The notes under the pieces are model-generated. The model made no database searches, was not told the origin of the DNA, and saw nothing but the letters and a program-made list of their open reading frames with translations. Position numbers and translations under genes: made by a program. DNA of 63,739 nt, counting the filler, from Reticulomyxa filosa (lineage: Eukaryota > Protista > Foraminifera): NCBI GenBank assembly GCA_000512085.1. It is 20 parts of 20 records of this genome, joined end to end, with 100 filler letters (N's around TTAATTAATTAA, not from the genome) between each part and the next. Parts side by side here need not be neighbours in the genome. Positions count along the whole stretch, not along the records: positions 2,959 to 12,504 come from ASPP01008561.1; positions 12,605 to 15,883 come from ASPP01000412.1; positions 15,984 to 19,425 come from ASPP01019151.1; positions 19,526 to 24,279 come from ASPP01022915.1; positions 24,380 to 25,662 come from ASPP01010595.1; positions 25,763 to 28,420 come from ASPP01017357.1; positions 28,521 to 29,923 come from ASPP01026741.1; positions 30,024 to 34,444 come from ASPP01003183.1; 12 more parts are not named here. One strand, written 5' to 3'. This document shows, one piece after another, positions 4,193-34,444 of the stretch (positions are counted from its first letter, which is position 1; each line of letters opens with the position of its first letter).

Positions 4193-5362
4193 ATGACTAC
4201 TGCCATCAATGAAACAGAGAATGTCACACTGCCATCGGTATGACTTTCTCTTCCTTTTTCATTGCATTCGATCAATAAAACAAACGTTTTGTTTTAATGA
4301 ATGGAACAGTTAGAAAAAAGAGTAACTACAGCAATTGAGCATTGGCTTCGATTGTCAAATATAAAATTTGGATGGATCCGTGATTTTGATAAAATTATTA
4401 AACAATATGTTACACTATTTATTGTTTATTATTTAAAAATATAAGTTTCTATTTATCTATAATAATGAATGCTGATTATAGATTCAAATATTTAAATTAT
4501 GGAAAATTTTACAAGAACATAACTGTGAAACGAATAGTATAAAATTTTCACCAGATGGCAAAAAGATTGTTTTGGCACCATTTGATACATTTGTGTATAT
4601 GTGGGATGTTGAGTCAGGAAAATTAATTAAAAAATTCAGAGGGCATTATCATTGGATTTTTGGAGCCGAGTTTTCACCAAATGAGAATATCATTGCGTCA
4701 TGTTCAAAAGATGCAACAGTTCGATTATGGAGTGTGACATTGGGAAATGAATTAGCGTCATGGAATACACATACATCAACAACAGCGGATGTAACATTTT
4801 CTCCCGATGGTAAAAGACTTGTATCATGTTCAAACAGAGTAATGCAAGTTTGGGATGTACACACTAGAACGCAAACCAATTAATACCAGTTGATGCTAAT
4901 GATGTATGGAACATACAATTTTCACCAGATGGACAAATGATTGTATCGGCATCAGATAACAAAACAATTAGTATATGGGATGCATGTTCATGCAAAAGAA
5001 TTAAACAATTAAAAGGACACTCCCATTTTGTACAACGTGCAAGATTTTCTCCAGATGGTCGATTTGTGGTATCCTGTTCACGGGATGCAACTATTCGAAT
5101 ATGGGATATACAATCAGAAAAAGAGTTACAAATATTTCGAGGACATTCAGGTTCTGTGAGAGACGTAAAATATTTTCCAGATGGTCAGGTGATTGTCTCT
5201 TGTTCAAATGATAAAACAATTCGATTGTGGGATGTAAAAACCGGTAATGAAATACAGAGATTAGAAGGACACTCCGATGTGGTGATGAGTGTGGACGTGT
5301 CATCAGATGGTCGTACCATTGTCTCTGGTTCATCTGACAAAACAATTCGAATCTGGAGATGA
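4193..5362 (+). CDS. WD40-repeat protein with N-terminal 33-aa 'GWIxDFDK' module
   Basis: Exons 4193-4237, 4310-4408 and 4482-5362 with GT-AG introns. WD40 repeats follow; one apparent 1-nt deletion near 4877. Confidence 0.85.
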
Positions 5363-5780
5363 ATTTGTAATGAAACTACCTACCATTTATCGGGTGATAT
5401 GTCCAAATTGTATGGTCATTGCAGCATGAACAAACTTTAGAAACATGTGTGCAATCGTACCAAACTACAGTTGTTTTATATAAAAAATAATAATGCTAAA
5501 AAGAAGAACAAGAAAAGCTGCTGCAATTTTAATGTCATTTTTTTAGTTCAATAGATAAATCTGTTGGACAGTAAAATCTAAAGTTCTTTCTGATCAAAAG
5601 CAGAAAGCATTGTTTTCAAAACGAAATAGTGTTTTTGTTATTCTCCACTTTCTTACAAAAAACTATCAAAGTGGACGAACAGTAAGAAAATCACGAATTT
5701 TTTTTTTTTTTTTTGTAATAATAAATACTTTCCTATTCTCCCTTTGGACGAAAGGAAAAAACAAAAAAAGATTATATCAT

Positions 5781-6949
5781 TTATTCTTTGCCTTTTTTTT
5801 GTTTCTTCGATTGTTTTTGGGAAGTGTTGCCTTGTGTTGGTGCGGCTTCATCTTCCTTTGTGTCTGTTTGGCTTTGTGAGGTAGTCGTCTCCGGTTTTGC
5901 TTTGCCTTTGTGCTGAGCTTTTTTACCTTTCTTTCCTCCGCCACCTCCCTGTCATTTTTATTTTTTTTAAAAAAAAGACATTACATGCACACTCCTGCGC
6001 TTATCATTCGGACAAAGAGAAAGATGTTTCATCTGGCTACACATACATACCTCTTCTTCAACACTGGAAAACGTGGAACCATCTCCTTCGATTTCAAGTC
6101 AAAGTCACCCCCGTTTGTGGGTTTTCTGAGCGAGTCACTTAACCGGTCCATTTCTACTCAAAAAAAAAAAAAAAGGGGGAGGGAATGAAATTTTTGGAGA
6201 ACGAACGAGCAAAAAAAAAGGGGGAGACCAACAAAAAAAAAATAACCTGCTTTAGAAAGTTCAAGGACAAAGATACATCCGTCAGGTCTGGATTTCCAAT
6301 CTTGTTCCAGAACGTTTCCGGCAGCATGTATGATATTGTTACACTGCCCAACGTAGCTATGTTTGATAAATAGCCGCACTGTCATCGCAACCTGTCTGGT
6401 GAAGGGCAATTTGGAACTCATTGCTTTTACTGCGTCCTCGGCTTGTTTCTTTGCATCTTTTTTCCCGTCAATCTTTATATGACAGTCTTTCATACATGCT
6501 TCAACGCGTTCTGGGGGATGTGGTAATTTTGTTTTTGGATCCTTTTTTTTTTTTTTTTTAATAAAAATTTTTTTGTTCAAAAAAAAAAAAATAAAGGGGC
6601 ATTAAAAAAAAAAACAAACCATATAATTCTTGAAAATGTGTTGAATCACTTCATGCTTTTTTGCTTCGATTTCGTCCTTTCTTTCTTGTGCACTCACTTG
6701 CAATTCGCCTTGTTCCACTATCTTTTTGCAACATTCTTCTATGTTTGATGTGCCAAAGGCGTCTTCCAAATCCTTTCCGCTTGCCAAGTCGCCACGGGAA
6801 GAATTTGTAAATATTGCATCTGCCATTAATACTTTGTCCCAACCCAATTTTCCCTCTCTGTACTTCAGCACAGTTCCTGGCTTGGTTAGGATCTCAAACT
6901 TTAGCTTTCCTTGTTGAAAACGCACTAGTTGCGCTTTAGCTTGGGCCAT
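5781..6949 (-). CDS. SBDS: Ribosome maturation protein SBDS/Sdo1 family
   Basis: Motifs KFEI..KP, IFTNSSRG, FGT, GELQVSAQER, DPKTKLPHPPERVE and KKQA. Exons 6949-6620, 6541-6247, ~6153-6051 and ~5948-5781. One apparent 1-nt deletion near 6095. Confidence 0.9.
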
Positions 6950-7309
6950 TACTTATATATTTGCACAAATTTTTTTATAGCCTGAATTCTGGGTTTTTTT
7001 AAATTTTGGAAGGGTTCTAGTCTTACAACGTGCACTTGACAGTACATTTGAAGTTGTTTAGTGGATTAAATGTTACAATCACAATATTGAATGTTTACTT
7101 TGTTATTATTTTTTTTTATCCATTTTTATTGATCCAGCGATCTAGAGATTGAGGTAAATGAAAGTAAACATGAAACAAATAGGAAATAAAAGATTGAAGA
7201 CTAATAACCCGCTAAAATTGATGGAAATTAACACCCATTTATTCAAATGTTATCATGCTAAATAAGCAAAATTTTTATCAAATGAAAAGAGTATTTTAGT
7301 ATGATTTCC

Positions 7310-7640
7310 CAGTTGCATTTTCTTATTGGACGCAGAATCTGGAAAAGAGTTAAAAGAATTAAGACAAGAATATGTTGTTATTCGTATTAGTATTTCATAA
7401 AATGAACGCAATGTCTAACCAAGCTTTCAGCGTATAGCTCAATTATGTGATATACAATCAGTGAAAATTGTGAAAGATTTAATTGTCATTCCAATCTGAT
7501 TTGATAATAGTATCATATAATATTTAAATCAAGCAAAAAAGTACGTGTATTGAAAGAACATTTAAAGAATAAATAAAGTTCAATTCTCCAAACAATTGTT
7601 GCTATTTCTTGTTCAGAGACAGGAGCAAAACGAGAATAAA
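7310..7640 (+). pseudogene. Highly degraded WD40 remnant
   Basis: Fragments LLDAESGKELKEL and SPNNCCYFLFRD interrupted by stops and frameshifts. Confidence 0.35.
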
Positions 7641-8066
7641 AAAAAATGGGTTGAGAGTTGGGACAAGCTTCAAAATGAACAGTTTGTGGTTTAAAAATAG
7701 TTAGAAATTTTGAACTACGGAGCTTTACACAAAATGACAAACAAAAATTTCCGAATTCGGTTCTTTTACCCGAAGAAAGGCAGAAATTTGGATGATCGTT
7801 GACTAGTAATTAATGCAAGCACTTTGAAAAGTTGTACACAGTCGATCAAAATTGTATTTGCGATTGGTTAGATCATATCCTCAAAAATGTCAGAAAATTA
7901 CAATCGCCTAATTATAAGTTGATCAAGCCAACAAACAAAAAAAAGTACAAAAATGAAATGACTTTGCAAAAAAAAAAAGATTATATTATTATGAAATTGC
8001 AGAATCGAAGATAAATTTGAAAGTAAAAAAAAAGTAAACTTGTAAAACAACAATGTAAAGAAAAGG

Positions 8067-8615
8067 TCAATTTTTTGCATTAGCTAATTCCCATTCAACA
8101 TCAGAAATATTGTTTGCAGTGTTGGCCTTTTCAGCAAATTGACTAGGTGCACACTTTTCAATAATACCCCATTGATCTACTTTTAAATAAATCCGAAATT
8201 TTGACATTTGCACTTTGACATTTCTTAGTATCAATGTATCGTCATTCCGAACCAAATTTATTTGTTCTAATCTCCCCCCAAAAAAAAAAATTGCATTGTC
8301 AACGTGGCATTAATTTATTATTATTATCGATTTAATATGATAAGATGTATCACAAACTTATTACCGCTATACCTCCCCCCCCCTCCTCTCCTCCCTTCTC
8401 TCTTTTTTATTCTTTCATGGATAGAACAAACCATCTTTCAAATGCAAAGAAACACAGCCCGAGTCATCCCCAACTAAAACACTGGAGACTTTTAAGGTGG
8501 CCCCGTCCAAATACAACCGATTGATTTCCGCTTTTGGGTCTCCACTTACTTTTACCACCAAATTGTATCCTCCACGTGAATTCGGGTTTAGGTCTTGTAC
8601 TTTAACAACTGTCAT
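8067..8615 (-). CDS. Small OB-fold nucleic-acid-binding protein (At4g28440/SSB-like)
   Basis: Two exons (8615-8432, 8266-8067) encoding KVQDLNP..YNLVVKV..VLVGDDSGCV..LILRNVKVQM..LKVDQWG..NNISDVEWEL. Confidence 0.8.
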
Positions 8616-9308
8616 GTTATACACAATACATGCGCAACCCACAACACACTCGTCGTCATTCGTGTTTCACTTCAAACTAAAGTGGACATTTTTTTTTTTT
8701 TTGGAAGTGAAACAAGACTTCACTGTCAAGGACAAATAAAAATACATTTGGGTTTTGCCAGTTGAGGCTTTGACGCATTCTCTCCTTTTTGATTGGAGGA
8801 TATGACGTAGCGAGCCTTTTTCATCATATATTGACTTTTTTATTGAAAGATATTTCAACAAAAAATATTCGGTCAGGCTTAATATCTTTTCAAAGTTCAA
8901 ATAGTTAGACAACGTTCTTAAAAGGGTAACGAAGAATTAACATAAATTTGTAAAAACCTAGTTGGCGACAGCAAGTTATTTGAAAGTTATTAGTGGGTCT
9001 AATATGCATTGAGATAATTTGTTATCCCTTTTCTCAATAAGTTTTTTGTAAAAAAAAGACAAATGTGAAATTTCACCTTATAAAGACAGCTACTTTCTGT
9101 ATAAAGAAAGACGTTTCCTTACATTTTCAATACTTTCGCTCCTCTCCTTTAGTCTTTGTATTATGTTGTCAAACTTCCACTTCAATTTTATTTCTTAATA
9201 ATTGCAAGTAGACACATATAAGGCAAGTGTTACTTTCAATTCTTTAAGCATAAAACTTACTTGTGTGCATTAATCTTTACATAAAAAAGAGTTTCAAACA
9301 GAAGTGCC

Positions 9309-11244
9309 ATGAGTTTAGTAAACGTCACTTTACGAGAAAATCAGTTCAAGACCCCCGACACGTCTTGAATTAGAAAGAGAGCTGAGGTCTGCAACGATGC
9401 TATTATCACAAAGAGGAGGTTATATCACTATATCATCAGCTGAATTGAATCGAATTAAGAACACAGCTGAAGCAGTATCAGTGCCAAATGCAGACAATAC
9501 CGTTAGTTTGGATCCATCTTTTTTTTAGCGACCCTTACTAGTTTTGCTCAATTATCAAAAAAACAAAGGCCAAACAAAAATTACATGAAGTGTCACAACA
9601 AAGAGCCTCGAAATGGACAGACACTGTAAAAGGATTGTACGAGAAGCAGAGTCAGTAAAACAGCAGAAGCAGATTGCAGAAGAGGTAAGAGCCAAGCAAT
9701 GGCATAACAACAACAAGTATAAGCAATATAAATACTTTTTGTAACATCATTAATCACTCCTTTCAGAAAATGTTACGTGAAATGGAAGCCAAAGAAGAAG
9801 CAGAACGAGCAAATAAAAATCAAGAAGTAAGACAGCAGCTGTTACAAACAAAAAAGCTTAATACTGACAGAACGAGGCAGTTCAACTCCAAACTTTTTAT
9901 ATGCGACGTCGTTCATGTAAGTACGTACCCCAGAAAACATTCAATACAAACGAATAACTCTTGAGCCACTTCACTTTTTGCGCATAAATAGGAAAGGGAT
10001 CACCAGCTGCAAATTAAAAATTATAAAAAGCAAGCTGAAAACGAAAGGGATAGAATGTTTGATACGATTGCCGAACAACAAAGACAGGCTTTAGAACAAA
10101 AAGATCAGGAGAAGGTAGGCACTACAACTTTGTCCGAAATTTGCAAAAATGTTCATTACGTGTATCAATCAAATTATACGATAGAGAGAATTGGACAACT
10201 TGAAAATGAAAGATACCTGCAAAATTATTGAGAAACAGCTCGAATATTTGCAAAAACAAGATGATGAAGAAATTGAAGTGAGCCCTTTTTTTTTAAAAAA
10301 AATTTTTGAAATTTAAAAAAACGAATAGATCTTGTTTACTTGCTAAAGGAGAAGAAAAAAGAAGCTGCAGAAATGAGACGTCTTGCCGAACAAGACAAGC
10401 AAAAAGCTTTGACTCTGCGGATGCAGCGGGTTGATCAAATCAAACAAGCAAAAGAAGAACAAATACAATGGTCGATTGAGCAAAAGCTAAAACAAGAAAC
10501 TCAAAAAGCTTTAGATAAAACAGAAAATAACCAAATTTTAAAACATTTGCAAGAAAAACAGCGCATTCAAAATAGTTGTAAGTTAAAAAAAGAACAATGT
10601 GATCTAAATGATGAGAAACTTAGACAGCAACTGGTTGAGAAGGCAATGGCACATCTTCAAACACAAGCAAGTGAAACATCTAGAATTGCAAAAGAAGTTG
10701 AAAAGGTTGAAGAAAGCTATAAAAAAAAAGAAACTGAAGAAATAAGTAAAAAAAAACAATTTTCGCAAGAGTTTTTAGAAGACTATCAAAGGCAAAAATT
10801 ACAAAAAAGAGGAGTAGAGCTAAATGAAAAAGAGAGCAAGAGAGCAGAGTTACAACGGGTCAACAAGAAAGCAGAAGAATATCAAAAGCAGCGAAATATA
10901 AAAAAAACAATTCAAAAGCAAGAAGCATTGGAATTGGCAAGATATCAGAAAAATCAAATGGTAAATTAATTGTAACGACTAGGTCCCTCTTTTTCTTAAA
11001 AGAGAAAACTAGCACAGAACTTGGTTTTGGATCAAGTTTGAAAATAATAATAAACAAAATTGTACAGATAGAGAAAGAAAAGCAAGATTTCCAAAGTAGA
11101 CAAAACGAGCTACAATTTGCGTCTACAACAGTTGAAAAACAAAAGAGTGAGGAAAAAGAGTTCAGTCAATGGGCCAAGGATAAATTACGAGAGTATGAAG
11201 ATAGAGGCGTGAAGGTCTCTCACTTAATTTCCAAGTACAAATAA
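9309..11244 (+). CDS. CFAP210/CCDC173-like coiled-coil (TPH-domain) axonemal protein
   Basis: Multi-exon coiled coil with ISSAELNRIK, KLHEVSQQRASKWTDTVKG and TDRTRQFNSKLFICDVVHERDHQL, which resemble conserved CFAP210 blocks. Apparent 1-nt deletion near 9655. Confidence 0.65.
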
Positions 11245-11519
11245 ATGTTGCAGTAACTAACATTTTAAGATTGTCTCAATTTAAAAAATTCAAAAACCGG
11301 AGAAATGTAAAAAAAAAAAATTGTTTTAAACACTTTTATTGCATGTGACATTTGCAGTCGAGTTCTGATTTTGATTGAATGTCGTCAGTATACATAAGAA
11401 AGACTTTTACTTTCCTCAGTTTGCACAAGATAAGCCACAAATAAATTCAAAGAAAGAAGTTGTTTCCAATATAAGTCAGATTTGTCTGAAAACAGAATAA
11501 AACAATTCAAAGGGGGAGT

Positions 11520-12504: not shown

Positions 12505-12604
12505 NNNNNNNNNNNNNNNNNNNNNNNNNNNNNNNNNNNNNNNNNNNNTTAATTAATTAANNNNNNNNNNNNNNNNNNNNNNNNNNNNNNNNNNNNNNNN
12601 NNNN

Positions 12605-13461: not shown

Positions 13462-15883
13462 TTATTTACCTTGCAAAAAACCAAAAAAGGTTCGAAATAT
13501 TCCGCCGCGTTGTTTCACAAATAATTTTTGTTCATCTTTCAAGCCTTTTGTATCCTTCCAAATACTGTCTTTCATTAACAAACCACTTTGGATACCAACC
13601 CTCCAAATACATTTCACCAAACTTGTCTCTGTTACATCAATAATTTTACAATTATCACAACTCCATAACCGAATTGTTTTATCCCGTGAATATGACGCCA
13701 ATTTGGAACCATCAGATGACAAGTGAACGCCATCAATATATCCAGTATGTCCTTCCAATACTTGAACTTGTTTTCCTGAAGATGCATTCCATATTCGAAT
13801 AGTTTTGTCTTTTGAATAGGAGATAATTTTAGAACCATCCGATGAAAACTGTGCTCTCGCTACTTCATCGACATGTCCTTCAAACGTATGCACTTGCTTT
13901 TCAGTTAATAAATTCCACAACCGAATTGTTTTATCACCTGGACATGATAAGATTTTAGTACCATCTGGAGAAAATCGTATATTATTTAAATCATTTTTAT
14001 GTCCTTCAAATAATAATCGTTTATTCCCAGATAATACATCCCATAATCGAAGTGTCCTATCACTTGAACATGACACAATTTTAGACCCATCTGATGAAAA
14101 TTGTACTCCTATTACATTATCTGAGTGCCCTTCAAGTACTTGAAGTTGTCCTCCAGATAAAACATCCCATAGTCGAACTGTATAATCACTAGAACAAGAT
14201 ACAACTTTGGATCCATCTGGTGAAAATTGCACATCATTTATATCAGTAGTATGTCCAGTAAATAAGTGGATTTGCTTTCCTGAGGATATATCCCATATTC
14301 GAATGGTTTTGTCATTCGAGCATGATACAAGTTTGGAATTATCAGGTGAAAATTGCACTTTTATCACTCGTTTTGAATGCCCTTCCAATAATTGAAGTTG
14401 TTTTCCTGATAACATATCCCATATTCGAACTGTGCTATCATCTGAATATGATATAATTTTAGAATTTTCTGGTAAAAATAGCACTCCATTTATATGTTTT
14501 AAATGACCTTCAAATATTTGGATCTGCTTTCTTGATTGTACATCCCACAATCGAATTGTATTATCTTTTAAAGATGACATGATTTTAGAACCATCAGGAG
14601 AACATTGCAATCCCGTTATAGCGTCTAGGTATCCTTCCATTAAATGAATCTTTCTTTCTACAGCCACATCCCATATTCGAATAGTCCCGTCCAATGAATA
14701 CGATAAAATTTTAGGTTCCTTTGGCAAAAATTCTACACCATATGCATCTTCTTCTAATAATTGGATTTGCTTTCCTGATGAAGAATCCCATACTCGAATT
14801 GTATTATCAATTGAACTAGATACAATTTTAGAGCCATCAGCTGAAAATCGGGCTTGCTCTATCCAACGTGAATGCCCTTCCAATACGTGAGTTTGTTTTC
14901 CAGAGGAGTGATCCCATAATCGAAGAGTACAATCACTTGAGTATGATAATACCCTCGAGCCATCTGGTGATAATTGAATTCCAAACACCTGACCTTTATG
15001 CCCATCTAATATTTGAATTTGCTGACCCGATAATGCATCCCATATTCGAATAGTTTTATCTTTTGAATACGATATAATCTGTGAGCCATTGGGCATGAAC
15101 AGTACTCCAGTTACTTTATCTGAATGTCCTTCTAATAATAAAAGCTGTTTTCCAGATAGCACATCCCATATTCGTATACTTTTATCTGCCGAACTTGATA
15201 CAATTTTGGAAGAATCTGGCGAAAATTGTGCAGCAAAAATAGTATCAGAATGTCCTTCTAATAATTGCAATTGTCCTCCAGATGATGCATCCAATATTCG
15301 GATAGTCTTTTCACTTGAATATACCACAATTTTAGAACCATCTGGCGAAAATGTTGCTGAAGCAATACCTGATAAATTTCCTCTCAATAGTTTAATTTGT
15401 TGACCTGATAATATATCCCATGTACGAATAGTTTCATCCCATGAACATGATACAATTTTAGAGCCATCATGCGAAAATTGTATTGTTGTTATTCCATCTG
15501 AATGTCCTTTCAATACCTGGAGCTGTTTTCGTAATGATGCATCCCATATTCGAATAGTGTTATCACGTGAATAAGATACTATTTTTGTTCCATCTGGTGA
15601 AAATTTAATTCCATCTACTCTCTTTGAATGTCCTTCCAAATATGCATATTCTCCAAAATAAATATTATTCATTGATGCGTTTGTGAAATTGACATTGCTT
15701 AGGCAAGCTTGACAAAAACGTACATAATCTAAATTGGCATTAGTAAAATTAGTTCCTTCAAGAAATGCACAGTCTAAGATCGCATGAGGAATTTTTATAT
15801 TATTCCAATCTTTGTAATGCATATTTACATTTGCTGAATTGAGTATGGTGATTGCATTTGCTGCTGCAATGTTAACATTGTCA
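13462..15883 (-). CDS. Pentapeptide + 16x WD40 C-terminal region, probably of a NACHT/STAND protein; 5'-partial
   Basis: AAANAITILN, then a pentapeptide segment (AFLEGTNFTNANLD), then 16 similar WD40 repeats. The frame stays open to the contig end; the NTPase domain is not on this contig. Confidence 0.85.
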
Positions 15884-16080
15884 NNNNNNNNNNNNNNNNN
15901 NNNNNNNNNNNNNNNNNNNNNNNNNNNTTAATTAATTAANNNNNNNNNNNNNNNNNNNNNNNNNNNNNNNNNNNNNNNNNNNNAATTTTTTTTTTTTTTT
16001 TTTTTGTAATGTGATTTTTTTTAAAAAAAAAAATTAAAGTTTGACCAAAAAAAAAAACTTTTTTTTTTTTTTTAAGTTAC

Positions 16081-19525: not shown

Positions 19526-19636
19526 TTTTTTTGCCTTATCTTTATTCTTTAGTTTATTAATTTGCTTTTTAAGTTTTTTTTGTTGTTCTGAGACTTTCTT
19601 CAGCCTATCTGCGAGTGATATATTACCCATATACAT
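19526..19636 (-). CDS. N-terminus of a small coiled-coil protein, TraD(Ti)/MobS-like; truncated
   Basis: MYMGNISLADRLKKVSEQQKKLKKQINKLKNKDKAKK runs off the contig edge. Called from composition and context only. Confidence 0.35.
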
Positions 19637-19852
19637 ATATTAAATTGTGTAGTTATATATTACAATAAACACTGATTATTGTAAACAGATATTTTGCAAT
19701 ATTTAATTATATATTAGCTTATTTATCTTTATATTTATTCAAATTAATGCTACTTAAAATGGTTAATATTTATAATAAATATTTTACAGATATTCTTACT
19801 TGGATTTACTTATTATACAATACTATTTATATATTGCTATATAATGGATATA

Positions 19853-20101
19853 TTATTTCGTATAAACTAATTGATATTTCTTACGCATTCTTACTTTATG
19901 AATAATATTAATTATCCTGTTTATTTCCTCTCTAGTATTATAATCACGGATTTTGTAATTTCCCAAGGCAGATATAAGACTACCCCATGTTTGTATTAGA
20001 CTTAAGTCATTAAATAAGTTTCTTTGTACCATTACATGATAAAACTTTGTTTCAGTTTTCCATAAGAAAAAGTTAGGATTGTTATTTAAGTCTATATCCA
20101 T
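19853..20101 (-). CDS. Stand-alone WGR-domain protein
   Basis: 82 aa: KFYHVMVQRNLFNDLSLIQTWGSL...KVRMRKKY fits the WGR pattern Y..Q.DLFG.W.L...WG...R.K.GY. Confidence 0.8.
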   Translation of the reverse strand: MDIDLNNNPNFFLWKTETKFYHVMVQRNLFNDLSLIQTWGSLISALGNYKIRDYNTREEINRIINIIHKVRMRKKYQLVYTK

Positions 20102-20359
20102 ATATCGGTTATAAGTAATGATAATAATTTATAAGGCTTATAATGTATGCTAATTTTATTAAAAATAATATCAATTCTTATTTTAAACACTCCTCGCCTA
20201 ACTCTTATTGTTTTGCTTAAGGGAATGATTATTATGCTTAAGTGAGGCTCAAGGCTGGCTCTTTAAAGTGCGTATTGCAAGTCTTTTAAGCTGTTGTTTT
20301 TATTCAACAACCTCTAAAACTCGCTTTAAATATGTTTTTAAATGCGGTTCTGTTTTTAG

Positions 20360-21240
20360 GCTACACCCCCCAGCCAAACCATTTGACTTTCTTCTAAAAA
20401 GTATTTTAGAATCAATTTAAAGGCATGTCGATCTCTTTAGATACCTTTTTCCTGAGCTAATCTTTTGTTTTTAAGGCATTGCATTTATTTTGCATTTTAA
20501 GAGGGGTTTTACTTTAAGCTACCCCCCTGCGTTAAAATCTCATTTTCTTTTAAAATATACTTTAAAAACTGTTTAACTGTATAGTTGCATTTATTGCGTT
20601 CTTTTAGTGTTTTTAAAAGCTTTTTATCTTTTTGGCTCACCCTAGCCAGCACTTTTGATTTTCTTCTAAAACATAGCCTGGAATTTATCTGAATATAAAA
20701 ACTTCAGACGCCAGTTAGGGCTAAAAGTCTTCTTTGATGAGCTATCTATACAGTTAAAATGTTCTGTATTAAAATATCATGATAAGTCGATTGCGGCAAG
20801 CCGTTAAAAAGTTGTACACCTATAGCAACTAATGTTGCTTTTTAAAAAATCGAGCTCAATAATAGAGACTACCTTTGCTAGCAAAAATGGATTTTCTGTA
20901 TACATTGATTGGGAGCGACTTTTAAAGCATTAATTTAATTATAGGCTTCATTTAGCATATGTATACACGAAATTGGATTTTTGTATACACTTACTGGATG
21001 GGCTTTTAAAACGATTTAATCGTCTATAGCCTGCTTTCTACTTATGTATACATAAAGTCGTGTTTTTGTATACAAAGAGAGATTAAGCTTACTGGATGCC
21101 ATTATACTCCATACTCTACCTATGTATACACGAAATTGAGACATATAAAAACATGCGTTTTTAAAGCTAAATCTTTCCTTAAGCTACCCCCCCTAGCCAA
21201 GCTATTTGACTTTCTTTTAAAACATAGCTTAAAATAAGTT
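20360..21240 (+). repeat. Four dispersed ~55-bp imperfect direct repeats
   Basis: gctAcCCCcc(t)agcca..c.atttgactttctt(c/t)taaaa at 20360, 20518, 20635 and 21183. Confidence 0.75.
20812..21130. repeat. 85-bp-period array with TGTATACA palindromes (iteron/origin-like)
   Basis: TGTATACA at 20897, 20960, 20982, 21045, 21067 and 21123. 20897/20982/21067 and 20960/21045 are exactly 85 bp apart; pairs are 22 bp apart. Confidence 0.8.
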
Positions 21241-21318
21241 GCTTAATCATCTTTTATCTTTGCTTTGACGGATATTCCTTATATCAAGGCTTGTTTTTAA
21301 TACTCTGCATTGGTTACT

Positions 21319-24279
21319 TCACATGCCAAAGTCCATTTCATCTCTCCTGATACTATGCGAAGGAGTTCTTTGCGCTTGCTGAACAGGTGCAGGTTTATGC
21401 AACTCTGCAGTATGAATATCCTTGTCATGTATCTGGCTTTCTTTATTCGCTTTTACAATTTGCTTTTCTTGTGCATTTGTTCCTTTTATTTCATAATCTA
21501 TTTGTATTCCCAGATTATGCGATCCTGCTCTATTGTCTATATACTTATTACTATTGTTCCCAATACTCATCATTGCCTTTAATCTTTCTATTCTTTTTAT
21601 TGGTATATTCACTCCATATTTGCCTTCATATTTTATCACTTCTTTGGCAATCATATTCGCTTTATTATATTCCATACCTTGCTTTTGATATTCCATTGCC
21701 AATTCTTTTAACTTTATCTCCTTATTATTAAACTCCCTCAATACCTTATTTATTTCCTCAGGGATATAAAATACACTATCCTTATTTGCCAGCCTTGAAT
21801 CTATTGCCATTAATCTTTCTAATTTATCTTCTAATACTTCTTTATTCTTTACATCTGCAATACCTGTAATATTTATTTTGCTCTGTAAATGCTTCCTTAA
21901 CTCTTCTTTCCTTAATACTTCATAGCAGACTCTTAATAAATACTCTCTCTTATTTGTATATTGTGCGTCTATTCCCATTCTCTCATAGTAATCCTTTATA
22001 CTCTCTGCTGTCTTTTGACTCACTTCCTTCGTTACTCTATCATCATTTATATTATCTGTTTCTTTAAGTAGTTTATTTATCGTTTTTCCAAAATGCCATT
22101 GTCTAAATTGTCGCTTTTTATATTATCTAACGGAGATAAGTACCTCAGAGAAAACTCCTCTCCTATGGCATTAAGTTGCTTCCCACATAACTGCATTGAT
22201 TGACTTGCTTCTGAATGCTTGTATAACGCATTCAAATCCTTCTCTATTGAATCTAATGCCTTTTCTCTGGCAGACATGCCTATGCCAAGATAATTCAATA
22301 TACTAAATCCTTTTATCTGTCCTAATACTTCCGGATCCTTCTCTACTGTCCTGAGCGCTCCTATCATGCCATCCTTTTGTACAAGCCTGTCCCACTTATG
22401 TTCCGCTGCCTTAGGTGATTCATATGCACTAAAGCATCCATTTATCTTCTCTTGAGATATGGTAGACATATGTAGTTTAATTTCTTTTTGTAGCTTTGTG
22501 GCTTTCTCATTAAAGTTATTTGTATCTGTCTTTAAATCCAATGCTTCTATATATTGATTAATACCTTTAACACCACTTTCCTTTAAGATATCGTTAAAGT
22601 CCTTACCTTGTTCTTTTGGCTTTATTATATCTACTCTTTTAAATCCTTGTTCTCTAAATATTCCTAATGCTTTTTCAATTGCTGACTGAGTCCCAGGATT
22701 ATCTCCATCATTATCCGCAACTATGATTAACTCTTTATCTTTATCTGTAAGTTCGATATTCTTTATATTCGATATACCTAAACTGCATATTACTCTTGCT
22801 GTTGGTTGAGCTTGTGCTATCGATAATGCTGTCTCCAGTCCTTCTGCTATAAATATCCGTGAGGATTTGCTATTGTTTGTTAATTCAACATGAGCTCCTG
22901 TTAATACTCCATAACTTCTCTTTACTATCGATAACTCCTTATTCTTGCCTCCTTCCTTATTAAGATAAATCGTTTGTGTTGCCTTTACCTTACCTGTGTT
23001 ATCTCTTGCCACACTTACTATCCCGGGATAATATTCCCCTGTCTCAGAAGACCTGATATTATCTCGATACCTTATATCCTCAGAAAGCTTTATCTTCTCT
23101 ATATCTATTTGCCTATGCTCTTTTAAATACTTACGCCCCAAGCTCGCCTTGCTATCTCTAATAGCTATAGTCTTATCTGCAAGCCAGCTTACAGCTTTTA
23201 ACTTATCCTGCTCCAATGTCTCCTTAACCTTGACTTCTTCATAACTACCAATACTGATATTGTTCTCTTTATAAGCCTTATATAAGCTTCCTCCTTCTCC
23301 AGATGAAAAATCATGCCATAATCCGCTCTTTAAATTTACTGATATACTTCCTTTATTACCAAATCTCAGTTCCGCATTATTCGATAACTTTTGATTAAGC
23401 TCTCCAAAGACCTTACTTGCTGTTTCTTTTATCAGAGCCACATTCCCCAAAAACTCGTTATAGCGTTCATTTCTGTCAAATACTTTTACTTGCTTTTGAG
23501 GAGTAACAAATTCTTTTCTATTTCCTTCCTTCTCTTTTGTTATAACACCAGCTTTCTGATGCTTGATTGCTGAACTCTTTTCTCCGCTGTGAGTTGCTAA
23601 CCATTTAGAAAGATGACTTATATTATTTGTGATTAACTTCACTCCATGCCTTGCTCTTGATAGCGTTACATAATACGATCTTTGCGTCGAAAGCGATATA
23701 TACTGCTCCCTTGCACGCAAGACCCCTATTACATAATCCGCTGTCTTTCCTTGCGCCGAATACGCCGTGTCACTATAGGCATAATCTATATGCTTTAAAT
23801 CTTTATCTTTTAAATCTGCCTCAACTACCTTGCCGTCACCCATTTCAAGCTTTATCTTATTTTCCAAAATACCTATAACCTTTGCTTCAGATCCATTAAC
23901 TATATAATTCTTTTCTTTATTGTTCCTCGTCCATTTAATCCTTTCTCCTATGCCAAGCTTTATCTTCTCTTCTTCATATATCGATATTCTACCGAAGCTT
24001 TTCTCCGGTATACTCTTTGGATCCCATTCAAAACTTTGTCTATCTCCTTCAAGCTTTAACTTATCGTTACTCACTACTAAAACCTTATAATAATCTCCTC
24101 TTTTTATTCCATTCCTTTCATCATTACTATTAAACCTAATCACATCTCCTTGCTTGTAATTCAAGAGATCTCTCCTCTTTGTATTACTTAACCCCTTTCT
24201 GGCAAGTATACTATGCTCAGTATCTTCTCCCTTTACATAATAGACTTCTTTCGAAACTCATAACTTCAGCTCCCAATTA
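21319..24279 (-). CDS. Conjugative relaxase C-terminal half (TraI/TraA-like): SF1B helicase + Toprim primase + BID-like domain
   Basis: Helicase motifs HIDYAYSDTAYSAQGKT and YVTLSRAR; Toprim motifs FIAEGLETALS, VADND and KDFND. ORFs 22077-24164 and 21319-22023 fuse if one A is added in the A5 run near 22085. 5' end missing. Confidence 0.85.
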
Positions 24280-26752: not shown

Positions 26753-28347
26753 TTTAATTTTTGTTGATATGCTCCCTCCTGACTTTTTTTTTTTTTTTTT
26801 TTTTTGAAACGGTAATGCGGGTGTAGAAAAAAAGCGGCAAAATTACCAAAAAATTCACAGAATGTTCTTTTAATAGTTGTCTTGAAGAGGCGCAAAGTCT
26901 GTGTGCGTGTGTATGGTGTCATGCATTTTTAATACAATAGACTTAAATAACAGCAACTGGACATTTATGAAATATTAAATCCATCAACAACAAATCATCT
27001 TGGTGGAGAGCTCCAAAAATGTTTGTGTTTGTCCTTGTTTTCCTTTTTTTCTTGGTTGTGTTTTCTTTCTTTTATTATTTCTTTTTTTATTTTATTTTTT
27101 TTTTTTGTCAGTTTTTTTTGTCAGTTTTTTTTGTTCGTTTTTGTTTTACTTTCGTGGTGTGTTTTTGTTTTTTTTTTTATATTGTTGGTCCAATGACCTG
27201 TATGGATCCATTCAATCAACCTGGACATTTTTTAATAATGAAATTGTAGTTCTGATTTTGTTCATTTTATTTGACGTTTGAAAGTGTACCAATTGTGTTA
27301 TTTTACGCGAAAAGATTCCTCTATTTTTTTCTGTGGAAAGTGGTTTTCTTTTGTTTCTTTTTCATTAAGCAATGTACTTTAAGCCTCTGCAAAGCAATCA
27401 CAAATGCAGTGGTGTTGTAAATGACAATGATGACGTCACAAATTGGCTGTTGTACCATTTCTTTTTTTTTGTTGTTCTCATTATGACAAAAAATCTCTAC
27501 TGCTTTATTTCAAATTTGTTGACCATGCAAGAATTATTATTTTTACATTAATTTGTACTTTTTATGAAAGTACATATATTTGTGTAAACTGGTCCCATTT
27601 TTAAAATAATTCACTCTTGCACTTTTTTTTCATTTCTTTTCTTTTTTTCAAGTCGCAACATTTTTATACCAAGAAAATTCAGGCAATTAATGTTAGTAAT
27701 CATCATAAATTAAAAGGATTTACCATTGATAGATGACAGTATCTTTTAAAATAACGATTTGGTGTAATACAATATAATCAAAACTATTTTTTAAATTTGG
27801 CGATAATAATATGAAATAACATAAAATGGAATTTATGTTCGTAATAAAAGTAAAGTAAATCGAAGACAATTTAGAAAAATAAAAAAATTTTAGAAATAAA
27901 CTATTTCAAATCTATTATAGTATTGCAATTTGTATGGTACACATGCATTTATAATATTTGTACGTCATTGCATAGTCTGACTTGAAATGTAATTTATTAT
28001 ATTTGCTAGCTTTCGTAAATTATTATATTAAAACATTATTCAATTGGTTCATGTTCACAATTCTGTAATGTGTCCAAATGTCGTTCGTTTATATGTAACA
28101 ATAATAATGTATGTTTGATTTTTTAATTATTGACGCATATTCGCAGTTAAATTTTCATAATTTTAACATATCTTTTTTTCAAGCATGTGTTCTTTTCATT
28201 TTGATGTTGATATCGAAAGTTAGAATAATATTTGAATATATAATTATTATGTATTTGTCTTTTGTTAGAAATGCAGTATGAACATATTTTGTATATTTAT
28301 TGTATTCATTGTCATATTTGTCTAATGTATTAATTTAGTATGTTATA

Positions 28348-28420
28348 CAGTATGTTGCAAAAAAAACTGAACACCGAAAATGCCACCTTATGAAGATGAT
28401 AGATTTTCTTATAAAAACAA
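28348..28420 (+). mobile_element. Tc1/mariner-type TIR end
   Basis: TA|CAGTatgttgcaaaaaaaactgaacaccgaaaatgccaccttatg at a contig edge. Confidence 0.75.
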
Positions 28421-28662
28421 NNNNNNNNNNNNNNNNNNNNNNNNNNNNNNNNNNNNNNNNNNNNTTAATTAATTAANNNNNNNNNNNNNNNNNNNNNNNN
28501 NNNNNNNNNNNNNNNNNNNNACAATTTGATAGCACTATGGACTCAATGAATGATCGGCTTGTGGTATTCTATGCTTTTGTGTATTGTCTGTTATACAAAT
28601 ACATATGGAATAAGTCTTCTTTGAACAATACACACGCACATGCACATGCACGTACACATTAA

Positions 28663-29790
28663 AGGAAAAAACACAGCAAACGATGAAAGAACAATTGGAT
28701 GTGTTTATGAAACAATCGTTCCAAAGCAAAATGACAAATCTGATCCAACAGATGAAACTAACCACTCATGAAATGACTAGCAAAATGGATGCTTTGCAAA
28801 CTAAGATCGACGAACTGGCGAGTCAAAAGGAGACAACTGCAAAAGAAAATCAAGACAATGAAAAGACAATTTCCGAAGTTTTGAAAAAGTTGGAAGAAAC
28901 AAAGGAAGATATCAAAACGTCAATTCGATCCAATTCCAAAGCTTTTTCAGTTTGTTTTTTCTTTTGTTTTATTTTGTTGTTCGTTCACATATACAATACA
29001 CGCATACGATGAAATTCGATAATTAAAAATAGGAGCTCTCGTCGCTGTACTCCAAATTGCTGCAAGAAATTGAAAAAACTTTGGCCGAAAAATCCAAGGA
29101 AATTTCCCAAAGCACTCAACATTTTATCGTTTCGTTTTCCTTACTTTTTCTCTTTTTCTTTCACTTTGTCTAACTCTTTGCAAATATTTGAAACAGCAAA
29201 ATGAAGGATTTCAAGGTCTGGAAAAGACAATCAAAAATTTGTTCAACAACTTGTTCACTACAATTACCAATCGTATCAGTGAGCAGACCACAAACAACGA
29301 TAAGGTGTCGGATGATGTCCACAGTGAATTGCAACAACTGAAAAAGTCCATTCAAGAACAAACCCGACAACTTCAGCTCGTGTTGCAACAAGAACAGAAA
29401 GAAACTTCACATCAAGCCTTGGAATCTTTTCATACTCGTCTTCAAGCTACTTTAGATCAGTTGTCCGGGGTGTGCGCCAATTTGGAGACAAGTGTCAAGC
29501 AGTTGCCTGAATTCCGGCAATTCACGGAGCATAGACAAAATGTACTTGACAATTAGATATATGTTTTCTTTCCTATAATCTAATTCATTATATTTAGCAC
29601 ATTTGTAAATACAATACACAAATCAAAAGGAAATTTAGTCAATTCTGTCTCACTGGACAAAATACTCAAATTACTGGAAGATCGATTTGGTGAATCGAAG
29701 CGGCGATTTTTTGTTGGATGCGTGTTCTTTCTCGTGCTGTTTTTATTGTTCAAAAAGAAAAATAGAGTATAATTATCACAGCTTGAGTGA
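28663..29790 (+). CDS. Hypothetical coiled-coil protein, multi-exon, partial
   Basis: Q/E/K-rich heptad ORFs 28683-~28950 and ~29190-~29540 with intervening intron-like segments. Confidence 0.5.
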
Positions 29791-30023
29791 CGTCGTCAAA
29801 TCGTCGCTCGCTATGTAAGATGAACAGCAAATACACTTTTATGTGAAATAATCTGTTCTTTTTCACACAAAAAGAGAATGTGAGTAGTTTCAAAAATCCT
29901 TTTTTTTTTCTTATTTTTTTTTTNNNNNNNNNNNNNNNNNNNNNNNNNNNNNNNNNNNNNNNNNNNNTTAATTAATTAANNNNNNNNNNNNNNNNNNNNN
30001 NNNNNNNNNNNNNNNNNNNNNNN

Positions 30024-30562
30024 TTCAATTTCAGAAACTACCTGTTTGTCATGATATTGCACCATTCCATTCATATGCATATGTGTGTATCAATGATATC
30101 ATCTTATTCTTTGGTGGATGGAGTAGTCAATCATCGAGAATTACTGTCTCAAAATCAGTGTACAAGTATTCAATTCGAGAAAACAAATGGATAACATTTA
30201 AAAACACTTTACCCAGTCCATTATGTCATTGTGTTGCAATATTGAGTGAAGAAGACAATTGTATACATATCATTGGAGGAGTCAAGGAAAAAAATATAGA
30301 ATTATCAACTCATATGAAGACAAAAGTGCGTGCATGGGATCCTTCACAGTTGGTAATGATTTGTTTATGTATTATTTATTTGATGAACACAAATAAATTA
30401 TGTTATATAAAACTAATTAACAAATAAATAAATAATAAATAGTCAAAAAAGGAAATTAAATTTATTATTCAATATTGGATTCAAACTTCAAAAATAAAAT
30501 TAGGATGGATTGATGATTTTGATAAAATTATTATGAAATACAGTGGAATGAATTATTCATAA
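30024..30562 (+). CDS. Kelch-repeat protein C-terminus ending in the 33-aa 'LGWIDDFDK' module
   Basis: ILFFGG..VYKYSIRENKW and IHIIGG Kelch motifs; phase-0 intron 30353-30442; last exon SKKEIKFIIQYWIQTSKIKLGWIDDFDKIIMKYSGMNYS*. Confidence 0.85.
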
Positions 30563-30949
30563 AGTTTAATATATAGATATAATTGATTTTTGATGAAGAA
30601 ATATCTATAAATTAATTCATCTTTAAATATGTTTTTGTAAATTTTTTTAAAAATTAACTAATTTGAGTATGTTCAAAAAAATATTTATTAAAAAGACAAA
30701 AACTGTTATAAATATCTTTTCTTCGCACAAATTGCTTGATTTTAATGAAATAAGTTATATTTGTAATAAGACTCGACATTATATTATTGTTGTTGTGATA
30801 ACACTTTTTCTTTCATTCCCTTAAATTTACTATCATAATTCCAAATGCCACCAACTATTTGGTTTAGGGGGCCGAGGCGGTCAGTTTGGGTTGAGTTAGA
30901 TTGGGAGGGTTGTATTGGAAATAAAAAAGAAAAAATAGATTGAAAAAAA

Positions 30950-32150
30950 GATTGGTTTGGTTGTTGGCAATGACGAAGCGTGCAGCGCCATAGCAAGAGT
31001 CGACCTTAGTATGTACAAAGTGAGCGTCGTCCATGGTTTCGGTGTGATAGTATTTTTGTTTGAATCGCATTTCCAACAGTTTGTCAAATACCACCAAACT
31101 GTCCACCGGACTTTTGAACAAAAACATTTGCTCTTTTTCGATGAAGTTGTCCTAGTCATCATCGGGAGGACCTATCAATAATGCATACATTCATCATATT
31201 CCTTTTTCTTGATGACACATGAGAGGTGAGCCCGGTCGATCATCCAGTCAATGAATCTTCAAACATATCCAACATGAACTTTTCGAATGTGTTGATCTCC
31301 TTCGTCGTGATTTTCTTGACTCATTAATGCAAATGCTATTCTTGTCGAAGATCACATTTTTAATCGGGGTGTCATCTCCCAAGTATTCTTGCACATTGTA
31401 AATGAGCTTTTTCGTCAAGATGCTCTTTGCGATATCTCTAACAATAATGTCGTCATACTCGATATCGGAAATATAATACTACTTCAACTTGTTAAAGTCA
31501 ATATCCACGTAGTCAGACTCGCTAATGCCCACAAATTCTTTGTCCGTGGCCACAATGTGTTCCATCCATTGATTCAGATCGTCTCAATTCAAACGCTCAT
31601 CTCCGTTCTTATCCCAATTATCAAATAGCATTTTCCATACCTTTGCACGTTCGTCCAATGCCACCTGCCAAATATCGACAATACTCCTTCGCATTGTGAA
31701 AATGGCATGTTTGGGAAATATGACCAGGTCGTTACTGGACAACAAGATGTCGGTTATTCCATCTGCAAAGGCATCTTTCTTTTTCTTCTTACTATCGGAG
31801 GAGGAGAATCTGTCTTATTGTCGTTTATAATCATCCCCTCCAAGATTCGCTTGATCCTTGCTCAGGGCAATCTGTCCCCCCCCCCCCCAACTCCTTCTGT
31901 GCACCTTTCATGTTCAGCATATCCGACAGAGACAATTGATTTGACGATGAAAAAGATCATCGATCTGCTCAAAGAAGCGTCGCTACTGATATTGATAAGT
32001 TTGGATGCTCGTCTTTGCTTTTCTTCCGATTCGCCGACAAGTGATACCCATTTTCAAAATAGTCTTGCTGATCCTTGCATACGCTTTGTTCATTTCTTCA
32101 ATTTTCTGTGTGTGTGTATTCCATTTGAATGCGACGCTACTTCAGTCATA
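30950..32150 (-). pseudogene. Intronless degraded gene with an EF-hand-like motif
   Basis: Long coding-like frame (...KMLFDNWDKNGDERLN*DDLNQWM...) with several TGA/TAG stops and frameshifts. Confidence 0.55.
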
Positions 32151-32299
32151 TATACGTTCTCTAAAAACCTTTTTCTTCCTTTCACTTCACATTTCACCAA
32201 AATCATTTATCATTATTAATAATCACTGAATTCATTATCATTCTCACTTCTTCTTGCCACTTGATAAACATTATGAAGGAAATCTATTAATCAAACATT

Positions 32300-33320
32300 G
32301 AAAAGCATTATCCAACTATTTTCCCCAATTATAATAAAATCATTGCAAATTTCCATATTTTCACTATCAAAGGTTTTCATCAAAAATTCAAACATTTTTT
32401 TCAATTGAAAATCGATAATCTCTATCAGTAAGAAATTTTAAAACATTAATTAATTGTTATTTTACAAAGTATATTTATGTTTGATAATATTGAACACATT
32501 TTGTTGAATTTCACAAGAAATAACAGCTTGTCTAGATTTTAATCCTTTTCATGCAACTTCATCCAATTCAATTTCATATAACTTTTTAACAATATTTCAT
32601 ACAATCTTTGAAAATATCATATTATCCAATCTATCGTTATCCAATGTTGATGATTTTTTTTTTTGCTAAATAACAAAATAATCGCAAGTATAAAGGTGTA
32701 TGATTCAATAATTTTAAACTTGGATTGTTTTTTTCATCAACTTGAATATTTTGAAAATAAATACGGATATAATTTTGAATATCTAATAACAATCAACATT
32801 CGTGAATTGTTTAAATATGAACAGATCGATTTGTTATTATTATGAAATGATGTTCATTGAAGGTACAATGTTGTAGCCATTGTTTTAAATTATTATTTTT
32901 TTCAATTTCATCAAATCCATTGATAATGATTGTGTAATAAGTATTGAAATTGATCATTCAATAAATATGCAATTCTTTGATACAATACTAATATGACGTA
33001 TCTCTCCAAATATCTTGTATTTCTATTGTTTCAGTTTAATTTCCATATATTAATGAATAATCTAATGTATTTGGCCATTTTCCATTTTCTTTTTCTTCAT
33101 TGTTTGTCATTTTTTCTTTTTATTTTCGAAATCGTTGTTGCGAATGTAGCAAGTATCAATGGATTGTCCAGGATCATCAAATAATGGAGCTAATTTGTCT
33201 TGTGATTGATAATATCGCTTTAATTTTTCTTTTGTTGCATTTAGTTTCTTATTTTTTTCTTCTTCCTCAGAGTATTTCTCTTCTATTTCTTTTTGACTTT
33301 GATATTTTTTTCACTACGGA
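32300..33320 (-). pseudogene. Degraded NACHT/STAND-family remnant
   Basis: LKRYYQSQDKLAPLFDDPGQSIDTCYIR, WPNTLDYSLIYGN*TETIEIQDIW and RIAYL/QFQYLLH fragments. The expected P-loop appears deleted; many stops. Confidence 0.55.
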
Positions 33321-33590
33321 ATGTGGGTACCAACAAACAAATTTAATGATATTAAAGATAATCAACAATTGAAAAAATTCAATGATTGAAATATTCGTTT
33401 ATGGAATGTTGGAACATTGAAATTGTTGCAAATTGGTGTGATTTATACCCAAAAATTCGTATATGGGAGGGGATATTGAAACAATCAAACAATGAGTTTT
33501 GTTATCAAGTATTAAAAAAGTTCAAAGTTTTTTTGTAACTTTCATCTGTGCTTGACAAACTCTTCTCAAAAAAAAGTATTTAGTATGGGT

Positions 33591-34444
33591 ATGTTTCAAA
33601 CACCAACCACTTTTCCTCCATTACACTCGGTAAGTTCTCAAACACATTTGTGGAAATTACGTTAACTTCCTTAACTAAATGTACTAATATTAAAAAAAAT
33701 AGTTTGAAAAAGAAATAAAATTAATAATTAATAATTGGATTAGAATTTCAGATGTTAAATTAGGATGGATTGATGAATTTGACAAATTTGTTGTCAATTA
33801 TGTTATGTTTATTTTTTATTAAATAAATAATGAGTATATACATATATATATGTATGTACATATATGTATATTCATAATATAGGCAAATACAATCTTTATA
33901 TTTGATACATTTTATTCATCATCTAAATTATTAAATACTTTTAATGGACATATTTCAACTATTTATAGTATTGATTATTCAATATTTAATAATCATCAAT
34001 ATATTTGTTCTGGATCAAGTGATAAAACAATTAGAATATGGTGTATAGATATAAATAAACAAATAAAATTATTAAATAAACATTTACATGAAATATATTG
34101 TATAAAATTTTCAAAATATTATAATAATATTTATGATCGTAATGTTATTTGTTCTTCATCATTTGATAAAACAATTCGTTTTTGGGATATTAAAAAAAAG
34201 AAACAATTTAAAATATTTAATAAATATAATAATGGTGTTTGTGGTATAGAATTTTCATCATTTAATAGTGGTAGATATTTATGTTCTGGATCATATGATA
34301 ATAATATTCATTTATGGGATATAGAAACATCTAAATTATTAAATATATATAATGGACATAAAAATACTGTTTGGTGTATAGATATATCACCATTAAAGAA
34401 TGAAAATAATAATAATAATAATAATATTGGAATTATTGGTGGTA
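33591..34444 (+). CDS. WD40-repeat protein with N-terminal 33-aa module, 3'-partial (absent from the ORF track)
   Basis: Exons 33591-33629, 33703-33801 and 33883-end; FNGH..ICSGSSDKTIRIW, SFDKTIRFWD and SYDNNIHLWD. Confidence 0.85.

What the first reader, a model, noticed from the sequence alone, without database searches (positions are those of the whole stretch)
4310..33801. A 33-codon phase-0 exon module shuffled between WD40 N-termini and a Kelch C-terminus: candidate new E3-adaptor box
Seen: three genes on three contigs carry the same module, each starting exactly at a phase-0 splice acceptor. 4310-4408 encodes LEKRVTTAIEHWLRLSNIKFGWIRDFDKIIKQY and 33703-33801 encodes FEKEIKLIINNWIRISDVKLGWIDEFDKFVVNY; both are exact 99-nt phase 0-0 exons before WD40 propellers. 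30443-30541 encodes SKKEIKFIIQYWIQTSKIKLGWIDDFDKIIMKY as the last exon after a Kelch propeller. Established: F-box, SOCS-box and VHL-box motifs are short helical modules that link WD40/Kelch substrate receptors to cullin ligases, and symmetric exons shuffle easily. Inference: this is a lineage-specific adaptor box defining an expanded substrate-receptor family, possibly for defence. I do not recognise it as a named domain.
Basis: partly seen in the sequence, partly recalled or inferred. Interest (0 to 1): 0.78.

Follow-up and report, generated by a model that had tools for sequence, protein, structure and literature searches.

The report
Shared helical box on foraminiferan propellers
In the freshwater foraminiferan Reticulomyxa filosa, at least 239 proteins share one 33-residue segment with no Pfam match, attached to propeller domains whose predicted binding faces vary strongly; it likely docks them on a common partner such as a ubiquitin ligase, which would make them a large, untested target-recognition family.

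Summary
The module is real. The three copies sit at the stated coordinates but on two contigs, not three. Two are 99-nt phase 0-0 exons by sequence; the Kelch copy opens a 120-nt last exon. The genome is Reticulomyxa filosa. No Pfam or PDB sequence match was found, and every named hit is R. filosa. AlphaFold2 places the module as a low-confidence helix-loop-helix outside a complete 7-bladed WD40. The propellers vary most at their predicted binding-face positions, as in expanded substrate-receptor families. The module fails the canonical BC-box (0 of 240), Cul2-box proline (1 of 240) and F-box tests. A DCAF-type DDB1-binding helix-loop-helix is the best ligase lead, from one weak overlay on DCAF5. 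A LisH-like dimerisation motif is a serious rival. Repeated exon shuffling is not supported: the module tracks its host family, and the fusions offer a simpler route. No binding partner is shown.

The parts
4193..4237 (+). Predicted first exon (15 codons) of module-WD40 type II gene
   Evidence: ATG to GT donor, phase 0, 72-nt intron; prediction from sequence
4310..4408 (+). Module copy 1, 99-nt phase 0-0 exon
4482..5362 (+). WD40 type II propeller exon, with a frameshift near 4865-4880
30026..30352 (+). C-terminal part of Kelch propeller (cut by contig start); RFI_03386
30443..30562 (+). Module copy 2 (30443-30541) plus 6-codon tail and stop; last exon, no donor after codon 33
33585..33629 (+). 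Predicted first exon (15 codons) of module-WD40 type I gene; the NCBI model uses another upstream exon
   Evidence: against P0002
33703..33801 (+). Module copy 3, 99-nt phase 0-0 exon; RFI_03388
33883..34444 (+). WD40 type I propeller exon (cut by contig end)

Best explanation
A 33-residue module with no Pfam match sits on at least 239 Reticulomyxa filosa Kelch and WD40 propeller proteins and is predicted to be a helix-loop-helix that likely docks these variable propellers on one shared partner, most likely a cullin-RING ligase adaptor, with DDB1 (DCAF-type binding) the best current guess. Shown: the family, its layouts and the variation at predicted binding-face positions. Predicted: two helices outside the propellers. 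Inferred: each propeller binds its own target on the top face, and the module folds on the partner and hands the target to ubiquitination. The family grew by duplication of whole module-plus-propeller genes. Kelch-module genes likely relate to module-WD40 genes through Kelch-module-WD40 fusions, either by loss of the splice donor and WD40 or by recombination within the module.
For: Family size: 238 proteins at E <= 0.01 among 5071 candidates; 212 clusters at 50% identity; 240 modules in 239 of 246 proteins held. Partners are almost only Kelch and WD40 propellers. WD40 top-face positions R1-2, R1 and D-1 (PMC3419727, passages) have mean entropy 2.64 bits against 1.27 for other polar columns in type I (24 sequences) and 2.71 against 1.52 in type II (15); 0 of 10000 random polar sets reach these values. 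Kelch columns after GG: 2.35 against 1.06 (51 sequences). AlphaFold2 gives helices 331-345 and 353-363 at pLDDT about 40, outside both propellers; the WD40 is complete without them. In one search the DCAF5 chain of DDB1deltaB-DDA1-DCAF5 (8tl6_B; Z 36.8, rmsd 3.1) aligns from model residue 334 (module position 5) to chain residue 11, with 317 residues aligned, against at most 304 for the other 47 single-propeller rows. CRL4 receptors bind DDB1 by a helix-loop-helix of very low sequence similarity (PMC13061254, passages). 21 of 24 full-length type I propellers carry two WDxR motifs.
Against: No sequence link to any known box: 0 Pfam families for the module, 0 PDB hits at E <= 10, and none of the 60 of 82 listed hits of a module-plus-first-strand profile reaches into positions 1-26. 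The DCAF5 overlay is one row, rank 50 of 50, on a stretch with pLDDT under 50. WDxR is absent from 14 of 15 type II propellers, and the same paper says it is not universal and does not contact DDB1. The module is only modestly more conserved than the propellers (0.71 against 0.64, 0.68 against 0.58, 0.49 against 0.46). Top-face variation is amino-acid diversity, not measured selection, and suits any binding role. Helix 1 fits the LisH pattern well. The presence of DDB1, Cul4, Skp1 or Elongin C in R. filosa was not checked.
Confidence: 0.42

Rival explanations
1. The module is a divergent LisH-like motif that dimerises or oligomerises the propellers. Kelch-module and module-WD40 proteins would pair combinatorially into two-headed binders, with no direct link to a ligase.
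For: LisH is a 33-residue motif whose inward-facing helix-1 residues are L8, N9, L11, I12, Y15, L16 (PMC9564828, passages). The module has hydrophobic residues at the same spacing (positions 5, 8, 9, aromatic 12, 13) in 178 of 240 copies, against 524 of 12000 shuffles; with a following Gly-aromatic pair, 174 of 240 against 13 of 12000. LisH is a two-helix bundle that homodimerises (PMC8591539, passages). Kelch-module-WD40 fusions bring the two propeller types together.
Against: The pattern was chosen after looking at the module and the copies are kin, so these counts are not probabilities. The conserved Asn is K or Q here (88%). The loop is about four residues longer than in LisH as I recall it. 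No Pfam LisH model matches.
Confidence: 0.25
2. The module is a degenerate BC-box plus cullin-box (Elongin C type, as in KLHDC or WSB proteins) or a truncated F-box-like helix pair that binds Skp1.
For: Hydrophobic residues at 22, 26 and 30 give the Cul2-box spacing (phi-P-x-x-phi-x-x-x-phi; PMC13061254) in 239 of 240 copies (position 22 was fixed by the parse). A C-terminal box after a Kelch propeller is the KLHDC layout (recalled).
Against: The BC-box pattern (recalled consensus) is met in 0 of 240; C/A/S at the key position in 0 of 240; Leu at position 5 in 4 of 240; phi-Pro in 1 of 240; any Pro in 11 of 240. 65 of 79 regex-classed Kelch-module proteins end within 10 residues, leaving no room for a three-helix F-box.
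Confidence: 0.13
3. The module is a structural cap, localisation or stability element of the propeller proteins, carried along by tandem duplication with no shared external partner.
For: Conservation is only slightly above that of the propellers. The module always abuts a propeller edge: it ends about 12 residues before the first GH in type II. Family genes lie in tandem (window 2959-3830 with 4193-5362; 30024-34444).
Against: The same module flanks two unrelated folds on opposite sides. AlphaFold2 found no confident packing on either propeller. The WD40 closes without it.
Confidence: 0.15

Closest known systems
DCAF substrate receptors of CRL4 (helix-loop-helix plus WD40; DCAF5, PDB 8tl6)
   Same: Predicted helix-loop-helix directly before a 7-bladed WD40; one structural overlay covers it; two WDxR motifs in type I.
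   Different: No sequence match; also occurs C-terminal to Kelch; type II lacks WDxR; DDB1 binding untested.
LisH motif (LIS1, TBL1, TOPLESS, DCAF1, muskelin)
   Same: 33 residues, two helices, same hydrophobic and aromatic spacing in helix 1, next to WD40 or Kelch.
   Different: Conserved Asn missing, longer loop (recalled comparison), no Pfam match; no CTLH or similar family found in the 21 proteins scanned.
BC-box/Cul2-box Kelch receptors (KLHDC) and SOCS-box WD40 proteins (WSB)
   Same: Short helical box at the end of a propeller; Cul2-box hydrophobic spacing kept.
   Different: BC-box pattern met in 0 of 240 and phi-Pro in 1 of 240.
Expanded F-box/Kelch and F-box/WD40 families of plants and animals (seen in search listings; details recalled)
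   Same: Constant small box plus hundreds of propellers with variable faces.
   Different: No F-box; the box is found at either end or between two propellers.

Membership tests
F-box | Match to Pfam F-box models | tested here: not met
   0 families for 3 window copies and 16 alignment members; HMMER filters drop most matches above E 0.1
F-box | Leu-Pro start and three helices (recalled) | tested here: not met
   Pro anywhere in 11 of 240; tail of 10 residues or fewer in 65 of 79 Kelch-module proteins; two helices in the model
F-box | Skp1 binding | not tested
   No Skp1 sequence was obtained
BC-box + Cul2/Cul5 box (SOCS, VHL, KLHDC) | BC-box [STPA]-L-x3-[CAS]-x3-[ILVA] (recalled consensus) | tested here: not met
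   0 of 240
BC-box + Cul2/Cul5 box (SOCS, VHL, KLHDC) | Cul2-box phi-P-x-x-phi-x-x-x-phi (PMC13061254) | tested here: not met
   Full motif in 1 of 240; hydrophobic spacing without Pro in 239 of 240
BC-box + Cul2/Cul5 box (SOCS, VHL, KLHDC) | Elongin C binding | not tested
DCAF (CRL4 receptor) | Helix-loop-helix beside a WD40 propeller | tested here: inconclusive
   Two helices at pLDDT about 40 in context; one long helix when folded alone; DCAF5 overlay in one row
DCAF (CRL4 receptor) | WDxR motifs (weak marker, PMC13061254) | tested here: inconclusive
   Two motifs in 21 of 24 type I; none in 14 of 15 type II
DCAF (CRL4 receptor) | Binding in the DDB1 BPA-BPC cleft | not testable with these tools
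   No R. filosa DDB1 sequence at hand; full-length DDB1 (about 1140 aa, recalled) exceeds the 1000-residue limit
LisH | Helix-1 residues L8, L11, I12, Y15, L16 spacing (PMC9564828) | tested here: met
   178 of 240 against 524 of 12000 shuffles; pattern chosen after seeing the module
LisH | Conserved Asn (N9) and match to Pfam LisH models | tested here: not met
   K 48%, Q 40% at the matching position; 0 families
LisH | Four-helix homodimer | not testable with these tools
   Needs SEC-MALS, cross-linking or a structure
Integral propeller blade | Supplies a beta-strand needed to close the propeller | tested here: not met
   The module is helical in the model; WD40 364-655 matches a 7-bladed protein with TM 0.96, rmsd 1.3. 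Kelch blade 6 of this gene model is low-confidence.

The most novel reading that the evidence does not exclude
A lineage-specific cullin-ligase adaptor box, matching none of the catalogued F-box, BC-box or SOCS motifs and working at the N-terminus, C-terminus or middle, arms hundreds of hypervariable Kelch and WD40 receptors as a ubiquitin-based surveillance or defence repertoire in a giant syncytial foraminiferan.
Probability: 0.3. Interest if true: 0.75.

Novelty: new variant of a known kind. Interest (0 to 1): 0.52.

Why it matters
Foraminifera have almost no molecular functional data. One 33-residue tag marks at least 239 proteins now labelled 'hypothetical', 'Kelch motif' or 'WD-40', and a single pull-down could assign them all. 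If it is a ligase box, it adds a portable adaptor motif used by both Kelch and WD40 folds and a large receptor expansion in Rhizaria. If it is LisH-like, it suggests combinatorial two-headed binders. The strategy (constant box, variable propeller) is already known from other lineages, and the family was seen in one species only, which limits the surprise.

Tried and rejected
Complex prediction of two module copies: no answer (score 0.00 in two runs, alignment not used, no controls folded); not evidence either way. Sequencing runs: no RNA holder listed; not evidence on expression. Module folded alone: one 37-residue helix, so it was not fold-searched. ESM Atlas: no usable feature hit in two searches; structure rows were two Foraminifera WD40 clusters and eight unrelated helical matches under the bar. 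Metagenome scan: 3 loci of 178 stretches, which on translation are a 23-residue match inside an unrelated ORF that looks like a phage capsid protein by my recall; judged chance. Viral scan: 0 of 131. Prokaryote genomes: 1 of 27, a 12-residue match, judged chance and not examined further. Kelch-domain tree (58 rows, quick method only, 0 of 55 branches starred; P0096 mislabelled, several fusions left out by the length or motif filter): cannot give the direction of change. Search for a host Elongin C through a giant-virus homologue: 701 hits, and none of the 120 listed is named as rhizarian. A second VIA-align look was not run because the machine was busy. Literature: seven searches listed no description of the module; I saw listings and abstract starts only. 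The R. filosa genome paper and the H-box paper (ids recalled) are not held, so they and their supplements could mention the family. Earlier findings: four look-ups, none relevant. No whole genome is held, so intron phases outside the window and dN/dS were not measured.
Full report
Verdict. The module is real and defines a large family in Reticulomyxa filosa.

Observation. The window is a chain of 20 short contigs joined by N-linkers. The three translations are exact and share 14-19 of 33 residues. An HMM from any two copies finds the third at E 1.7e-11 to 1.1e-14, with the next hit at E 0.1 or worse. All three follow an AG. Copies 4310-4408 and 33703-33801 are 99-nt exons between phase-0 GT-AG introns of 72-81 nt. 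Copy 30443 follows a 90-nt phase-0 intron and runs six codons further to a stop. Copies 30443 and 33703 are on one contig (30024-34444), so there are two contigs, not three. The 4310 gene has a frameshift near 4865-4880, either a sequencing error or decay. Splicing is inferred from sequence and from two NCBI gene models.

Source and family. A profile search returned 25 proteins of 251 candidates, all named R. filosa, including RFI_03386 and RFI_03388 on a 4421-base contig equal in length to the window's. A wider profile gave 238 proteins among 5071 candidates; the 120 listed are all R. filosa. A full HMMER scan of 1.84 billion representatives gave 212 clusters; 150 were listed, 124 of them new and unnamed. 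I looked up 20 of those 124, chosen among the weakest-scoring and the longest, and all 20 are R. filosa. The other 104 unnamed, and the 118 and 62 unlisted hits, were not checked. Foraminifera are thinly sampled, so 'lineage-restricted' means 'not found elsewhere here'.

Layouts. I parsed 240 modules in 239 of the 246 proteins held. Classes by regular expression: module-WD40 type I 82, Kelch-module 79, module-WD40 type II 29, Kelch-module-WD40 12, unclassed 38. By hand, P0229 and P0059 are not fusions and P0222 is, which gives 11 fusions. They look real: each has one module between the propellers (P0123 has a second, from an upstream gene merged into the model), one WD40 start motif occurs only in them (6 of 6), and P0065 encodes Kelch end, module and WD40 start in 205 residues on a 773-base contig. 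One unclassed protein has a weak NACHT match (E 0.005) and may be a gene-model artefact. W12, G21, I23, F26 and Y33 are 94-98% conserved and R14 89%; W22 is 100% by construction of the parse.

How it spread. On a 33-column tree of 201 modules the four classes need 19 label changes against 91.5 when shuffled (0 of 200 as low). The tree is poorly resolved, at least two rows carry the wrong label, and near-copies cluster anyway. Fusion modules are nearest to Kelch-type modules (0.57 identity, against 0.46 and 0.50). After Y33, Val followed by intron-like text is seen in 26 of 82 type I and 5 of 29 type II models but 1 of 79 Kelch-module models, and read-through of the upstream intron in 11 of 79 Kelch-module models. 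This suggests both phase-0 introns are family-wide and that Kelch-module genes lack the 3' donor. The simplest reading is whole-gene duplication plus a few rearrangements through the fusion form. The direction is unresolved. Phase 0 is the commonest intron phase in eukaryotes (recalled), so symmetry alone is weak evidence for shuffling.

Structure. AlphaFold2 on fusion P0081 (54 sequences; mean pLDDT 81, pTM 0.55) gives helices at 331-345 and 353-363 within a stretch under pLDDT 50. The WD40 part matches a 7-bladed protein with TM 0.96 and rmsd 1.3 and spans 364-655 in most VIA-align rows, so the module is not needed to close it. Folded alone the module gives one long helix, so the two-helix form is not secure. 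In one search, DCAF5 bound to DDB1 (8tl6_B; rank 50, Z 36.8, rmsd 3.1) aligns from model residue 334 to chain residue 11 with 317 residues. Four other rows start earlier (296-303) but align only 299-304 residues. This is a hint on a low-confidence stretch, not a test. A sequence profile of module plus first strand reached no DCAF among the 60 of 82 hits shown.

Propeller variation. At the WD40 top-face positions R1-2, R1 and D-1 (PMC3419727, passages) entropy is 2.64 bits against 1.27 at other polar columns in type I (24 sequences) and 2.71 against 1.52 in type II (15). No random polar set of 10000 reached these values, and 10 and 11 of the 20 most variable columns are top-face. Two of the 20 type I columns came from a false pattern match, which lowers the contrast. 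Kelch columns after GG average 2.35 against 1.06; that these face the ligand is recalled. The module is only modestly more conserved than the propellers. This is the pattern of a receptor family with many specificities; selection was not measured.

What the box is. No Pfam family (one search gave only weak WD40 and stray hits) and no PDB sequence matches. The canonical BC-box (recalled) is met in 0 of 240 and the Cul2-box of PMC13061254 (passages) in 1 of 240, although its hydrophobic spacing is kept. An F-box is excluded by the lack of Pro and of room for a third helix. CRL4 receptors bind DDB1 by a helix-loop-helix of very low sequence similarity (PMC13061254, passages), which fits the layout and the overlay; two WDxR motifs occur in 21 of 24 type I propellers but none in 14 of 15 type II, and the paper calls WDxR a poor marker. 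Helix 1 also has the LisH spacing of PMC9564828 (passages) in 178 of 240 copies against 524 of 12000 shuffles, but lacks the conserved Asn; the pattern was chosen after the fact. My odds: docking on a shared partner, most likely a ligase adaptor of DDB1 type, 0.42; LisH-like oligomeriser 0.25; cap or localisation element 0.15; degenerate Elongin C or Skp1 box 0.13.

Novelty. Seven paper searches (listings and abstract starts only) showed no description. The genome paper is not held and InterPro, SMART and PANTHER were not searched. Other papers seen as passages: PMC12648486, PMC8955593, PMC8591539 and 10.1101/2025.11.14.688510. I rate it a new variant of a known kind, interest 0.52: an unnamed domain on a large, diversified family with a clear test, but no partner shown and one species.

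Noticed in passing
window 21322-24257 (-), contig 19526-24279: Two long intronless ORFs; the larger has Toprim_3 and DUF7146 matches and looks like a conjugative relaxase/primase. Probably a bacterial endosymbiont or contaminant contig.
   Followed up: partly
window 13465-15927 (-): Intronless frame of over 800 codons with pentapeptide-like repeats and about 15 WD40 repeats, like the tail of a NACHT-pentapeptide-WD40 NLR-like gene (read; not scanned).
   Followed up: no
window 2959-3830 (+): Another type II WD40 gene directly upstream of the 4310 gene, cut by the contig start, with a frameshift near 3135: tandem arrangement.
   Followed up: partly
window 59241-59502 (+): C-terminal end of a type I WD40 family member whose start is cut off by the contig edge.
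   Followed up: no
window 6605-6952 (-): SBDS N-terminal domain; ordinary housekeeping gene.
   Followed up: partly
L004 136-636 (+): A giant-virus metagenome contig encodes an Elongin C homologue of 166 aa, about 70% identical to animal Elongin C over the core.
   Followed up: partly
P0123, P0222, P0228, P0230: Divergent Kelch-module-WD40 fusions carry a charged, coiled-coil-like linker between Kelch and module.
   Followed up: no
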